Assembly: GCA_966112795.1 (NCBI GenBank)
Contig: CBHWED010000001.1
Location: 1-45,377, forward strand
DNA: 45,377 nt
Origin: an uncultured bacterium
Lineage (GTDB): Bacteria > Pseudomonadota > Alphaproteobacteria > Sphingomonadales > Sphingomonadaceae
Reading direction: 5' to 3'
Shown: piece by piece, positions 35,158-39,229 of the stretch
How positions within the stretch are numbered: the stretch's first letter is position 1
Layout: each line of letters opens with the position of its first letter
Made by a program: the position numbers and the translations under genes
The notes under the pieces: generated by a model
What the model saw: the letters and a program-made list of their open reading frames with translations, nothing else
The model's database searches: none
What the model was told of the DNA's origin: nothing

Positions 35158-35715
35158 CTAAAGCTCGATCCGCTGCACCGCGTTCGACACGCCCCGCGCG
35201 CCGTCGGCATCGGGGTTGAGCTGAAGGAACTGCCAGTTGAGCAGCGTCGCGAACAGGATCCAGGCGACGTAGGGCAGCAGTAGCAGCCCGGCCACGCGGC
35301 GGACCTTCCAGAACAACACCAGCGTGAGGATTACCGCGAGGTCGAGCGCAACGAGGATCCACAGCGCCAGCGTGATTTGATGCTCGCCGAAGAACACCGG
35401 CGACCAGGCGAGGTTGAGCGCTAACTGGAGCACGAACGCGAGGATTGCCGGCAGCCGGTAGCGCGCGCGCCAGGCGGCGCAGACCAGCGCCAGCGCAAAA
35501 CCCATGAGCGCGTAGAGCACGGGCCAGACTATTGCGAAGGTGACCGGCGGCGGGAACGTCGCCGGCTTGTCGAGCGCCGCGAACCACGGGTTGTCCGCCG
35601 TGCTGCCTGCGTATTGGCCGGACAGGAACCCGAGCAGCATCACTGCCGGGACCAGGAACAGCGCCCAGCGCAAGACGCTGGCGCGAAGTTGGGCAGGCGA
35701 GGCGAGGCGGTTCAA
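35158..35715 (-). CDS. tspO: TspO/MBR family membrane protein
   Basis: 'WF..L.KP..FPP...F..VW..LY..MG', 'QLALNLAWSPVFFG', 'LLLPY..W..FA..LN'. Confidence 0.92.
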   Translation of the reverse strand: MNRLASPAQLRASVLRWALFLVPAVMLLGFLSGQYAGSTADNPWFAALDKPATFPPPVTFAIVWPVLYALMGFALALVCAAWRARYRLPAILAFVLQLALNLAWSPVFFGEHQITLALWILVALDLAVILTLVLFWKVRRVAGLLLLPYVAWILFATLLNWQFLQLNPDADGARGVSNAVQRIEL

Positions 35716-35805
35716 GGACGGCTCCCTTCGACGAATCGGCAGCGGTATGGCGGCGCGGACCGCACGACGCAACGTGGCGCGCGTGTCGGTCTCGTTTCGG
35801 GAGCG

Positions 35806-36543
35806 CTATCCGCGCTGCGCCGCGATCAGGAACTCGACGTTGCCCTCGGTGCCCTTGATCGGGCTTTCGGCGATGCCGAGCACGCGCCAGCCGTCACCCT
35901 CGAGCCAGCCGCGCACTTCGTCGCACACCCGGGCATGAAGCGCGGGATCGCGGACGATGCCGCCCTTGCCGACCTCGTCGCGGCCGACCTCGAACTGCGG
36001 CTTGATCAGCGCGACCAGGGTGCAGCGCGGCTCTGCCAGGATCAGCGGGACCTCGAGCACTTTGGCGAGGCCGATGAACGAGGCGTCGCAGACCACCCAG
36101 TCGCACGGACGATCGATCTGCTGCGCGGTCAGCGCGCGGGCGTTGGTCTGCTCGAGCACGGTGACGCGCGGGTCCTGGCGCAGCTTCCAGGCGAGTTGGT
36201 TGGTGCCGACGTCGACCGCGAAGACATGCGCCGCACCGTGGGCGAGCAGGACTTCGGTGAAGCCGCCGGTCGAGCTGCCGATGTCCATCGCCACGGCGCC
36301 TTTGGGATCGAGGCCGAAGTGGTCGATCGCGCCGTCGAGCTTGACCCCGCCGCGGCCGACCCAGGGGTGGTCGCGGCCGCGCACCTCGAGCGCTGCGTCG
36401 GCGCGGACCTGCTGGCCCGGCTTGTCGACACGCGCTTCCCCGGCGAAGACCAGCCCGGCCATCACCAGCGCTTGCGCGCGAGCGCGGCTTTCCGCTAGCC
36501 CGCGCTCCACGAGCAGCTGGTCGATCCGTCTTTTCTCCGCCAT
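35806..36543 (-). CDS. tlyA: TlyA family rRNA methyltransferase
   Basis: S4 domain 'RIDQLLV.RGL.ESR..AQAL..AG.V', RGG.KL, DIGSSTGGFT, VDVG.NQL, DASFI.L, LIKPQFE, SPI.G.EGN.EFL. Confidence 0.94.
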   Translation of the reverse strand: MAEKRRIDQLLVERGLAESRARAQALVMAGLVFAGEARVDKPGQQVRADAALEVRGRDHPWVGRGGVKLDGAIDHFGLDPKGAVAMDIGSSTGGFTEVLLAHGAAHVFAVDVGTNQLAWKLRQDPRVTVLEQTNARALTAQQIDRPCDWVVCDASFIGLAKVLEVPLILAEPRCTLVALIKPQFEVGRDEVGKGGIVRDPALHARVCDEVRGWLEGDGWRVLGIAESPIKGTEGNVEFLIAAQRG

Positions 36544-36628
36544 CCCGGACCGATACGGCGGGGGAACGGGGCAGGCCAGCGCTTGTTGCTTGCCCGACGG
36601 TCCTTTCCCGCAACAGGAGCCTTGTCCG

Positions 36629-37132
36629 ATGCGTCTTCGCCTTGCCCTGCCGCTTCTTCCCGTTGCGCTCGCGGCCTGCTCGCAACAGTCGGACGAGGCC
36701 ACGCCGAGTCCTTCGCCGACGCTGACCACGCAGGCGTTGCCGACGCAGGCGCCCGACGGAACCCCGCTCGCCGCGGGCGAATGGCTGGTCGGCGAGACCG
36801 GCGGCGGTGCGAGCGCTACGTTCCACGAGCAGGGCGGCGCCGACGCGCTCGTGCTCGCCTGCGATCGCGCCAACCGCGCGCTGAGCCTCAGCCGTGCCGG
36901 CACCACGGCCCAGCCGGCACGCTTCCGCATCACCATCGGCGCACAGAAGGCCGACGTGATGATGTCGCCCGGCGGCGCGCTCGGGCTGACCGCCCAGGTC
37001 GACGGGACGCAGCCGATCTTCGCCGCGTTCGCCGATCCCGCCGCGGTGATCGAGCTGACCGGTGCCGGCGCGGCGCCGCTGCGCGTGCCCGGCCATCCGG
37101 GCATCAGCCGGGTGTTCGCCGCATGCAGCTGA
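36629..37132 (+). CDS. Lipoprotein of unknown function
   Basis: AGGAG RBS; LAAC lipobox; Pro/Ser/Thr linker; G.W...L.C... domain ending RVFAACS. Confidence 0.8.
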   Translation: MRLRLALPLLPVALAACSQQSDEATPSPSPTLTTQALPTQAPDGTPLAAGEWLVGETGGGASATFHEQGGADALVLACDRANRALSLSRAGTTAQPARFRITIGAQKADVMMSPGGALGLTAQVDGTQPIFAAFADPAAVIELTGAGAAPLRVPGHPGISRVFAACS

Positions 37133-37653
37133 CCGTGCGAGCCTTGCTGACGGGCGCGGGCTTCCTCGCGCTTGCGGCGTGCGTACCCACGCCTGCCCCC
37201 ACCCCGACGCCGACGCCGGCCCCGGCTCCGGCGCCTGCGCCGAGGCCCGCGCCGGCTCCCGCGCCCGCACCGCCGCCGTTCGCCGGCAACTGGATCGATG
37301 CGCCGGTCACGCCGGGCGACTGGAGCTATGCTTCGGGGACGGCGACGTTCGCCGGGCCGGACGGCGGCGTGCTGCTGACCTTGCGCTGCGCCGCGGGCAC
37401 GATCGCGCTCACGCGTGCCGGCGTCGGCAACGAGTTCGCGCCGACTCTGGTCGTCCGCAGCGAATTCGGAGCGCGCTCGCTGAGTCTGACCGCGACCCCC
37501 GGATCGACCGCGGCATCGCTGGCGGCGAGCGATCCGCTGCTCGACGCGATCGCGTTCTCTAAGGGGCGTTTCGCGGTGGAAAGCGCGGGCCTGCCGACAC
37601 TTTACGTGCCCCCCTACCCCGAGCTCACCCGGGTGATCGAAGACTGCCGCTGA
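37123..37653 (+). CDS. Lipoprotein of unknown function, paralogue of upstream gene
   Basis: LAAC lipobox, (PT)n(PA)n linker, 'TPGDW.Y ... L.LRC ... D.LLDAIAFS.GRF.V ... P.PEL.RVIEDCR'. Confidence 0.82.
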   Translation: MQLTVRALLTGAGFLALAACVPTPAPTPTPTPAPAPAPAPRPAPAPAPAPPPFAGNWIDAPVTPGDWSYASGTATFAGPDGGVLLTLRCAAGTIALTRAGVGNEFAPTLVVRSEFGARSLSLTATPGSTAASLAASDPLLDAIAFSKGRFAVESAGLPTLYVPPYPELTRVIEDCR

Positions 37654-37717
37654 CGGAGACCCGCGCGACGCGGGGCGAAGTGTGGGATTCTGACGGGGAA
37701 AAACAGAAATTCAAGTC

Positions 37718-37746
37718 TTGCGTTAACGACTCGCGTGACTCACATT
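37718..37746 (+). promoter_or_regulatory. Putative sigma70-type promoter
   Basis: TTGCGT (37718-37723), 17-nt spacer, CACATT (37741-37746), preceded by an A-rich tract (GAAAAACAGAAATT). Confidence 0.55.
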
Positions 37747-37828
37747 CCAGGCAGGCCAGCGGTCCACGCCGGCTCGGCTTCGGGTGAAACCGAAGCATGG
37801 CTTCCAAAGCGCGAAAGGAGGTGATCCG

Positions 37829-37885
37829 ATGTCTCATGGTTCAGCAGGGAGGTCGGTGACGACCCTCGCGGAGCATTATCGGTAA
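37829..37885 (+). CDS. Putative 18-aa peptide MSHGSAGRSVTTLAEHYR
   Basis: ATG directly after an extremely long Shine-Dalgarno (37813-37827); TAA at 37883-37885. Confidence 0.5.
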   Translation: MSHGSAGRSVTTLAEHYR

Positions 37886-37941
37886 TCACTTCTATCGCCG
37901 ATAGAGGCTTCGTGGGCGGCTGTACCGGCCGCTGACCATGC

Positions 37942-37982
37942 GGAGGGCGGTTCTCGGGATACCGGGGCCGCCCTTCTCATTT
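37942..37982 (+). terminator. Intrinsic terminator
   Basis: GGAGGGCGGTTCTCGG-gata-CCGGGGCCGCCCTTC stem (with G-U pairs) followed by TCATTT. Confidence 0.65.
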
Positions 37983-38131
37983 GGACAATCCCGGTCTAGG
38001 GCGACGCCAGCCAGTTGAGCGTTGGTTTTGAAAGAGACCGTTTCAACGCTTACCAAATATTACAATTTCTCTTGCGATACTGTAATTTTCTAACTTACAC
38101 CGATATCGCACGAGATAAGGACCAGGATTCG

Positions 38132-39212
<1,081 letters not shown>

Positions 39213-39229
<17 letters not shown>

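What the first reader, a model, noticed from the sequence alone, without database searches (positions are those of the whole stretch)
37718..37982. Unannotated small transcription unit with a 15-nt perfect anti-16S-tail site and an 18-codon ORF
Seen: between a lipoprotein pair and ilvE there is a promoter-like TTGCGT-N17-CACATT, a hairpin (37777-37796), then GAAAGGAGGTGATCC (37813-37827), ATG at 37829 opening MSHGSAGRSVTTLAEHYR*, two more hairpins and a terminator (37942-37982). Known: GGAUCACCUCCUUU(C) is the 16S rRNA 3' tail, so this site could pair over 14-15 nt, far longer than the 4-7 nt SDs of other genes here. Inference: this is a self-contained RNA that may trap or position 30S subunits, encode a regulatory micropeptide, or act as a decoy. 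It is missed by the ORF track. I could not assign it to a known family.
Basis: partly seen in the sequence, partly recalled or inferred. Interest (0 to 1): 0.85.

Follow-up and report, generated by a model that had tools for sequence, protein, structure and literature searches.

The report
Ribosome-docking mini-mRNA of rre type
This is a conserved, single-copy mini-gene whose RNA can pair with the whole 3' tail of 16S ribosomal RNA just before an 18-codon reading frame; it is a new sphingomonad variant of the known but still unexplained rre small mRNAs, and it likely works as a folded RNA that grips the small ribosomal subunit rather than as a peptide gene.

Summary
The element matches Rfam CC2171 over the full model (60.4 bits, E 2e-11, below the cut-off of 75). 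It has the architecture of the rreB/rreR small mRNAs (Hahn et al., PMC5711450), where 30S binding, weak translation and start-codon-dependent decay were shown.

It is conserved in 20/20 same-genus and 32/36 same-family genomes. It forms 15 Watson-Crick pairs plus one G·U with the genus's 16S tail.

Selection acts on frame and RNA, not peptide. The stop stays at codon 19 while swapping among TAA/TGA/TAG, and pN/pS is about 1.2. A helix from ORF +7 to the terminator foot covaries across lineages, and modelling predicts that it closes once the SD is bound.

Not found in the papers I searched: the sphingomonad form (ATG start, 60-nt leader, conserved promoter GANTC), and the links CC2171 = rre and rre ~ Ms_IGR-5, with relatives in Acidobacteria, Planctomycetes and Ms_IGR-5 loci. 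The scan noted similar elements on other DNA (e1-8497728, e1-9779079). Physiological output remains inferred.

The parts
37712..37723 (+). -35-like element TTGCGT, overlapped by a conserved CAAG-N-CTTG palindrome (37712-37720)
   Evidence: CTTG invariant and CAAG nearly invariant in 35 family loci; promoter function inferred; not found by the consensus scan
37737..37741 (.). GANTC (CcrM-type methylation) site abutting the -10-like hexamer; a second GANTC at 37728-37732
   Evidence: GANTC at the same offset in 32 of 35 loci, with the middle base C, T or A; background 1.3 per kb; GcrA/CcrM control is inferred
37741..37746 (+). -10-like hexamer CACATT; predicted start of transcription near 37753
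   Evidence: sequence, conservation; start not mapped
37753..37812 (+). lineage-restricted 5' leader with hairpin 37777-37796 (GUGAAA loop)
   Evidence: present in the genus and close relatives, absent in L011, L027 and L030; hairpin pairs covary, but leader helices are only 59-86% paired on the alignment
37813..37828 (+). extended Shine-Dalgarno: 15 Watson-Crick pairs + 1 G·U with the 16S 3' tail; the last two pairs reach into the base of the terminal 16S hairpin
   Evidence: intact in 26 of 27 orthologous loci, 1-nt spacer deletion in L025
37829..37885 (+). 18-codon ORF MSHGSAGRSVTTLAEHYR*
   Evidence: 18 codons in 48 of 54 orthologues; stop TAA 19 / TGA 13 / TAG 5 among 37 distinct ORFs; pN/pS 1.23
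37835..37845 (+). 5' strand of P1 (ORF +7 onward), pairing with 37931-37940
   Evidence: invariant within the family; compensated across lineages; part of the Rfam CC2171 consensus
37852..37856 (+). invariant GUCGG, able to pair either with CCGAU over the start codon (37826-37830) or with the 3' CCGGC
   Evidence: invariant in 35 of 35; cross-lineage swap test weak
37866..37915 (+). stem-loop P2/P3 carrying the stop codon at the start of its variable loop
   Evidence: 6 of 17 pairs with compensatory changes, 93% of cells paired
37916..37932 (+). hairpin P4, overlapping the 3' strand of P1
   Evidence: 1 of 5 pairs compensatory (C-G 30, U-A 4), 99% paired
37938..37982 (+). terminator-like hairpin (37942-37976) whose AUG/CAU foot competes with P1
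   Evidence: 4 of 9 pairs compensatory; constrained folding; short U-tract, not found by the scan
37805..37973 (+). full-length match to Rfam RF01867 CC2171 (model 1-159)
   Evidence: 60.4 bits, cut-off 75, E 2.4e-11
36629..37653 (+). two upstream paralogous putative lipoprotein genes (36629-37132, 37123-37653); context only
   Evidence: lipobox-like LAAC in both; no Pfam hit; second gene upstream in 25 of 27 loci
38132..39229 (+). ilvE, branched-chain amino acid aminotransferase; context only
   Evidence: NCBIfam PRK13357 520 bits and TIGR01123 above cut-off; within 1.5 kb downstream in 21 of 27 loci

Best explanation
This is a stand-alone small RNA of the rre class whose extended Shine-Dalgarno can pair with the entire 16S 3' tail and likely holds a 30S subunit at the start of an 18-codon frame, where a conserved helix beginning at ORF +7 is predicted to gate initiation so that translation would be rare and would mainly serve to unfold and turn over the RNA. 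Steps: (1) transcription from its own promoter, possibly under CcrM/GcrA control (inferred); (2) 30S docking through a 16-pair duplex (pairing shown in silico here; binding shown for rreB); (3) once the SD is held, the ORF folds into a long rod closed by P1 (predicted; P1 is supported by covariation); (4) only ribosomes that unwind P1 initiate and run to a fixed stop, which releases the 3' strand to extend the terminator foot (predicted); (5) translation-coupled cleavage sets the RNA's lifetime (shown for rreB, inferred here). The RNA's level or its fragments would then report the supply of initiation-competent 30S subunits. The peptide is most likely a by-product.
For: Full-length CC2171 match. 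An rreB homologue from Afipia broomeae ATCC 49717, a strain in Hahn's alignment, scores similarly on the same model (L148, 54.6 bits), and an rreR-type locus also hits (L042, 37.3 bits). rreB data: 30S co-sedimentation, weak translation, and half-life 10 to 37 min when the start codon is removed (PMC5711450). Conservation: 20/20 genus and 32/36 family genomes; one exact match in each of 77 of 148 same-class genomes and 0 of 253 in other classes of the phylum (my count from its table). Frame selected, peptide not: the stop stays at codon 19 with TAA 19 / TGA 13 / TAG 5; third positions of codons 2-5 and 9 are nearly invariant; pN/pS 1.23. P1: 54 of 88 loci with a terminator-like hairpin (88 of 118 distinct loci) form 5 or more Watson-Crick pairs between ORF +6..+17 and the terminator foot, against 11% in cross-subtype pairings; 21/21 and 18/19 in the two largest subtypes, with compensated sequences. 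Folding with the SD held open gives P1 probability 0.98 here and above 0.5 in 46 of 55 relatives, against 15 of 55 when free. The terminator foot forms in 40 of 55 under an initiation footprint, against 5 of 55 with only the SD bound.
Against: No transcript end, strand, ribosome binding or translation was measured for this locus. The physiological output is unknown even for rreB, whose overproduction had no growth effect. P1 is invariant within the family, so the support is cross-lineage only, and kin are not independent. P1 is weak in the Rhodobacter-type subtype (0 of 5 reach five pairs), and an unanchored duplex test gave z<-2 in only 25 of 118 loci. The terminator-foot switch appears in only 9 of 27 CC2171-type sequences. 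Within the genus pN/pS is 0.56 (11 distinct ORFs), so weak peptide selection is not excluded, and RNA structure depresses pS. The single-sequence minimum-energy fold differs from the comparative model.
Confidence: 0.55

Rival explanations
1. The RNA is a dedicated 30S parking or inspection factor: it binds subunits with a mature, accessible 16S 3' end (reaching into the terminal hairpin) to store them or check their maturation, and translation only resets it.
For: The duplex covers the whole single-stranded tail plus two pairs of the terminal hairpin. It is single-copy across many families. rreB is found in the 30S fraction.
Against: rreB is far outnumbered by ribosomes, and its overproduction did not slow growth. 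The exact motif was not found in 71 of 148 same-class genomes searched.
Confidence: 0.2
2. The 18-residue peptide is the functional product, and the extended SD and helix just keep its synthesis low.
For: ORF length and stop position are conserved. Genus-level pN/pS is 0.56. Hahn et al. found RreB and RreR conserved within their clades.
Against: Family-wide pN/pS is 1.23, and the invariant residues coincide with nucleotides that are invariant at third positions and form helices. Peptides of other lineages are unrelated beyond the first residues. Synthetic RreB and RreR are unstructured.
Confidence: 0.13
3. It is a leader-peptide attenuator controlling read-through into ilvE.
For: ilvE lies downstream in 21 of 27 loci. 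The U-tract is short, and the terminator foot switches with ribosome position in models.
Against: There is no run of Ile/Val/Leu codons. Other genes lie downstream in L011, L018, L023, L027 and L030, and ORFs intervene in L003 and L019. The main terminator stem stays at probability 1.0 in every modelled state, so no antiterminator forms. Context is not conserved across alphaproteobacteria.
Confidence: 0.06
4. It acts as a conventional trans base-pairing sRNA, as its Rfam label suggests, and the SD/ORF is secondary.
For: CC2171 RNAs are catalogued as sRNAs and were detected by Northern in Methylorubrum (bioRxiv 10.1101/2022.01.24.477521, passages). rreB yields a free 60-nt fragment.
Against: The best-conserved single-stranded stretch is complementary to 16S rRNA, and 118 of 121 sampled loci keep an 11-27 codon ORF at SD distance.
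Confidence: 0.05
5. Chance match or remnant of an antisense rRNA fragment.
For: The motif is the reverse complement of the 16S end.
Against: It is unique in the genome, orthologous in 20/20 genus genomes and embedded in a covarying structure; complementarity stops at the start codon.
Confidence: 0.01

Closest known systems
rreB / rreR small mRNAs with extended Shine-Dalgarno (Hahn et al., RNA Biol 14:1353, PMC5711450; main text parts 1-4 of 6 and supplement part 1 of 2 read)
   Same: Same extended SD register (7-nt spacer after AGGAGG), short ORF (18 codons, as in rreR), own promoter and terminator, structured RNA; Ser as second residue.
   Different: ATG start, not GTG (the paper notes ATG only for Azospirillum); 15 perfect pairs + G·U instead of 16-17 perfect; different peptide; about 60-nt structured 5' leader (rreB has 8 nt before the complementary region). 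Sphingomonadales are not among the orders named, and a search of the supplement text for them gave 0 hits (alignments held as pictures could not be read).
Rfam RF01867 CC2171 (Caulobacter sRNA)
   Same: Full-length model match; shared 5' motif, P1 helix and terminator.
   Different: Below the gathering score (60.4 vs 75); the P1 pair is G-C where the consensus has U-A; central helices differ. Rfam lists it as a non-coding sRNA, although named Caulobacteraceae loci carry a 21-codon ORF (L066, L113, L135).
Rfam RF02471 Ms_IGR-5 (Actinobacteria sRNA)
   Same: Its consensus also opens with an extended SD. All 15 of the 16 metagenomic loci that pass its cut-off carry a 12-codon ORF (the pattern demanded an ATG). 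Acidobacterial loci found with my motif pass its cut-off (L080 51.6, L065 47.7 bits).
   Different: The window itself does not match RF02471 (where no control rang either). Those RNAs have a second SD just before the stop, which is not general in the alphaproteobacterial forms. Homology versus convergence is untested.
Leader-peptide transcription attenuators (recalled)
   Same: Short ORF, alternative helices, terminator.
   Different: No amino-acid-specific codon run, no antiterminator, no fixed downstream gene.

Membership tests
rre class (Hahn et al.) | At least 16 nt of perfect complementarity to the 16S 3' end | tested here: not met
   15 Watson-Crick pairs plus one G·U: 16 contiguous pairs but only 15 perfect
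rre class (Hahn et al.) | Short ORF starting at canonical distance, directly after the complementary region | tested here: met
   ATG 7 nt after AGGAGG, 18 codons, conserved
rre class (Hahn et al.) | Stand-alone small gene with own promoter and terminator | tested here: inconclusive
   conserved promoter-like and covarying terminator-like elements; consensus scans negative; RNA ends not mapped
rre class (Hahn et al.) | Tight 30S binding, weak translation, start-codon-dependent decay | not testable with these tools
   shown only for rreB
rreB proper (Bradyrhizobiaceae) | 17-nt complement, GTG start, conserved 14-aa peptide | tested here: not met
   ATG, 18 codons, different peptide
rreR proper (Rhodobacter/Roseobacter) | GTG start and conserved 18-aa RreR peptide | tested here: not met
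   same length but ATG; unlike the 18-codon peptides of the Rhodobacterales loci (the paper's own alignment is a picture and was not seen)
Rfam RF01867 CC2171 | Score at or above the gathering cut-off of 75 bits | tested here: not met
   60.4 bits; 1 of 61 relatives over the cut-off
Rfam RF01867 CC2171 | Full-length sequence-structure homology incl. closing helix and terminator | tested here: met
   model 1-159, E 2.4e-11; helix compensated
Rfam RF02471 Ms_IGR-5 | Match to the covariance model | tested here: not met
   no match in G000 (controls did not ring either); not listed in the all-family scan of the region
BCAA leader-peptide attenuator | Ile/Val/Leu-rich leader and antiterminator ahead of a fixed biosynthetic gene | tested here: not met

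The most novel reading that the evidence does not exclude
rre, CC2171 and Ms_IGR-5 are branches of one unrecognised, multi-phylum class of single-copy housekeeping RNA (Alphaproteobacteria, Acidobacteria, Planctomycetes, Gemmatimonadota, Actinobacteria). It reads the whole 16S 3' end and uses a helix-gated dummy ORF to sense or inspect free 30S subunits, a counterpart on the initiation side to tmRNA and 6S RNA; in this sphingomonad lineage it is tied to the cell cycle by a conserved promoter GANTC site.
Probability: 0.2. Interest if true: 0.85.

Novelty: new variant of a known kind. Interest (0 to 1): 0.47.

Why it matters
The class was described once in the library I could search and left without a function, yet its exact motif is present once per genome in about half of the sampled genomes of this class and recurs in other phyla. 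This locus set shows that reading frame and RNA helices, not the peptide, are what is conserved. That turns an open question into specific mutational tests (P1 and compensatory repair, stop relocation, recoding). It also suggests that two Rfam 'non-coding' families carry hidden ORFs.

Tried and rejected
Promoter and terminator consensus scans found nothing.

The single-sequence fold, in which the SD pairs with the pyrimidine-rich stretch after the stop, was not adopted: that loop is variable in the alignment.

The test for covariation of the start-occluding hairpin by swapping the two spacer purines was weak: native beat swapped 29 vs 15 of 46 and 33 vs 26 of 60. The script crashed after printing these lines.

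An unanchored P1 duplex test was weak (z<-2 in 25 of 118). A second internal SD is not general (13 of 115 at z<-2; median z -0.1 in this subtype). GANTC enrichment outside the family is modest (15-16 of 108 per bin near the element, against 2-9 further upstream).

Metatranscriptome contigs from 4 of 23 listed runs (4 studies) hold 130-156-nt pieces with 0-1 mismatch inside 37809-37983 and almost nothing on the leader or upstream flank. The runs were found with this stretch, come from relatives and cannot show strand or ends, so this is not counted as evidence of transcription.

The second CC2171 hit in G000 (C116, E 0.002) is an ordinary gene end plus terminator. The RF02471 search of G000 was uninformative.

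Literature: searches found no paper joining CC2171, rre and Ms_IGR-5, or naming a sphingomonad rre. One search listed 40 of 110 papers; by title they are unrelated, and the motif is a common 16S primer (recalled). The Caulobacter ribosome-profiling supplements (PMC4117421) gave only a locus row and a probe. Two S. meliloti papers do not mention rre (passages only). Most subscription papers, including the original Caulobacter sRNA screen, are outside the library.

An ilvE pN/pS control was not run.

Full report
Observation. The 15-mer is unique in the 3.23-Mb assembly. The assembly lacks 16S rRNA, so I read the tail from the 2 of 21 genomes searched in the genus that have it. It gives 15 Watson-Crick pairs plus one G·U, the last two reaching into the base of the terminal 16S hairpin. 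The duplex (-29.9 kcal/mol) is stronger than at any of 5327 long-ORF starts in the genome (median -7.9, best -23.7). Flanks: two paralogous ORFs with lipobox-like LAAC and no Pfam hit upstream, and ilvE downstream. Promoter and terminator fail simple consensus scans but are conserved.

What it is. Rfam gives a full-length CC2171 match, 37805-37973, 60.4 bits against a cut-off of 75, E 2.4e-11. Hahn et al. (PMC5711450; main text parts 1-4 of 6 read; supplement part 1 of 2) described rreB: a 165-nt mRNA with a 17-nt complement to the 16S tail and a 14-codon GTG ORF. It co-sediments with 30S, is weakly translated, and is stabilised from 10 to 37 min when the start codon is removed. Overproduction had no growth effect and the function stayed elusive. 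They list Caulobacterales, Rhizobiales, Rhodobacterales and Rhodospirillales, found with a 16-17-nt perfect match. The 15-nt sphingomonad form would fall under that threshold (inference). The two names describe one family: the Afipia broomeae ATCC 49717 locus, a strain in Hahn's rreB alignment, scores 54.6 bits on CC2171, and an rreR-type locus scores 37.3. CC2171 was detected by Northern in Methylorubrum (bioRxiv 10.1101/2022.01.24.477521, passages).

Distribution. RF01867 matches 34 of 61 genomes searched: 20 of 20 in the genus, 32 of 36 in the family, and one weak hit among 24 genomes of other families. Of the 30 loci fetched, 27 are orthologues with the MSHG-type ORF and 3 are a second MSHC/VSHC type. 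An exact degenerate motif matched 77 of 401 genomes of the phylum, once each. By my count from the table, that is 77 of 148 in the window's class and 0 of 253 in other classes. The class is inferred to be Alphaproteobacteria from named loci with nearly the same peptide, such as a Porphyrobacter locus (L037). A scan of one 64th of the genome collection returned 121 loci, about 7,900 stretches estimated in all. Of these, 118 have an 11-27-codon ORF (GTG 66, ATG 55 over all 121). By record title, 6 are Acidobacteriota, 7 Planctomycetota, 1 Gemmatimonadota, 1 Ca. Rubrimentiphilum, 2 Burkholderiales, 1 Gammaproteobacteria and 1 Bdellovibrionota (the last with a long ORF); most are MAG labels. Acidobacterial loci hit Rfam Ms_IGR-5 above its cut-off. 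The consensus of that family also begins with an extended SD, and 15 of 16 metagenomic loci found with a pattern derived from it pass its cut-off and carry a 12-codon ORF (the pattern required ATG). I reached the Ms_IGR-5 link, before reading an earlier scan note with a similar reading.

What selection acts on. Among 54 orthologues the ORF has 18 codons in 48, 19 in 3, and 20, 16 and 15 once each. Among 37 distinct 18-codon ORFs the stop is TAA 19, TGA 13 and TAG 5 times, so the position of termination is kept. pN/pS is 1.23 overall (0.49 for codons 2-6, 1.24 for 7-18; 0.56 within the genus on 11 distinct ORFs), and invariant residues are invariant at third positions too. These are pairwise, non-independent estimates without a control gene. 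On a 35-sequence alignment, 22 of 59 modelled pairs change on both sides (13.2 in shuffles). P2/P3 and the terminator carry most of the reliable signal, the leader is poorly aligned, and P1 and the start-occluding hairpin are invariant. Across lineages P1 is compensated: CAUGG/CCAUG here, CAUUG/CAAUG in CC2171 types, GUGGGAU/AUCUCAC in another subtype. Of 88 loci with a terminator-like hairpin, 54 reach five Watson-Crick pairs, against 11% of cross-subtype pairings; Rhodobacter types reach only four. A looser test was weak, as was the swap test for the start-occluding hairpin.

How it likely works. With the SD held single-stranded, as when paired to 16S, the window RNA folds into a rod closed by P1 from ORF +7 (probability 0.98). 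With a full initiation footprint P1 cannot form, and its 3' AUG pairs at the terminator foot (0.91), while the main terminator stem persists in all states. The same shift holds for 46 of 55 and 40 of 55 family sequences (the 55 include one outlier with a long ORF, L125), but the foot switch holds for only 9 of 27 CC2171-type sequences. Together with the rreB experiments, this suggests a 30S-docking RNA with helix-gated, infrequent initiation and translation-coupled turnover, whose abundance or fragments report initiation capacity (confidence 0.55). Docking, gating and decay are inferred for this locus, and the downstream effect is unknown. The promoter carries GANTC at one fixed offset in 32 of 35 loci, with a variable middle base. 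GcrA activates some methylated GANTC promoters (PMC7987155, passages), so cell-cycle control is plausible but untested. An ilvE attenuator is unlikely: ilvE follows in 21 of 27 loci, but other genes follow or intervene in several, there is no BCAA codon run, and no antiterminator forms.

Verdict. A real, highly conserved element, homologous to a published class but failing the strict criteria of rreB, rreR and the Rfam cut-off: a new variant of a known kind. The added value is the sphingomonad form, the evidence that frame and structure rather than peptide are conserved, and the link among three separately catalogued families. I did not find that link in searches; the library lacks most subscription papers, and figure alignments in the rre paper could not be read. 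Interest 0.47.

Noticed in passing
L001, L004, L006 (genomes G034, G015, G023): A second, CC2171-like type (MSHC/VSHC ORF, GGTGGTC spacer) occurs in some family members, away from the lipoprotein/ilvE context; G015 and G034 hold both types, and L063/L064 lie 4 kb apart on one Sphingomicrobium contig.
   Followed up: partly
L025:1481-1771 (-): One-base deletion in the SD-start spacer with the rest of the element intact: a natural test of spacing.
   Followed up: no
window 37712-37720: Conserved CAAG-N-CTTG palindrome over the -35 region; possible operator.
   Followed up: no
window 37753-37812: Lineage-restricted structured 5' leader with a GUGAAA-loop hairpin; absent in other sphingomonads, where the promoter abuts the SD.
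   Followed up: partly
L154-L168; L049, L054, L065, L070, L076, L080, L082: Ms_IGR-5-type RNAs carry a short ORF with a second SD a few bases before the stop, spaced to hold a terminating ribosome.
   Followed up: partly
L038, L090, L091, L099, L104, L144, L146: Planctomycete loci with the extended SD and 11-14-codon ORFs; the two scanned (L090, L091) matched only CC2171, weakly.
   Followed up: partly
window 36629-37653: Two tandem paralogous putative lipoproteins of no Pfam family, the second with a Pro-Ala/Pro-Thr repeat linker; the second stays upstream of the RNA in 25 of 27 loci, more tightly than ilvE.
   Followed up: partly
L043, L048, L058, L062, L083, L105, L106, L108, L151: Sphingomonas, Sphingobium and one unassigned Sphingomonadaceae orthologue carry 40-80-nt insertions after the stop codon while P1 and the terminator are kept.
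   Followed up: no
L125, L089: Two loci where the extended-SD start opens a longer ORF (59 and 48 codons) that looks signal-peptide-like; possible capture of the site by a real gene.
   Followed up: no
window 35806-36558 (-) and 35158-35772 (-): Neighbouring TlyA-family rRNA 2'-O-methyltransferase gene and a TspO/MBR gene; no link to the RNA tested.
   Followed up: no
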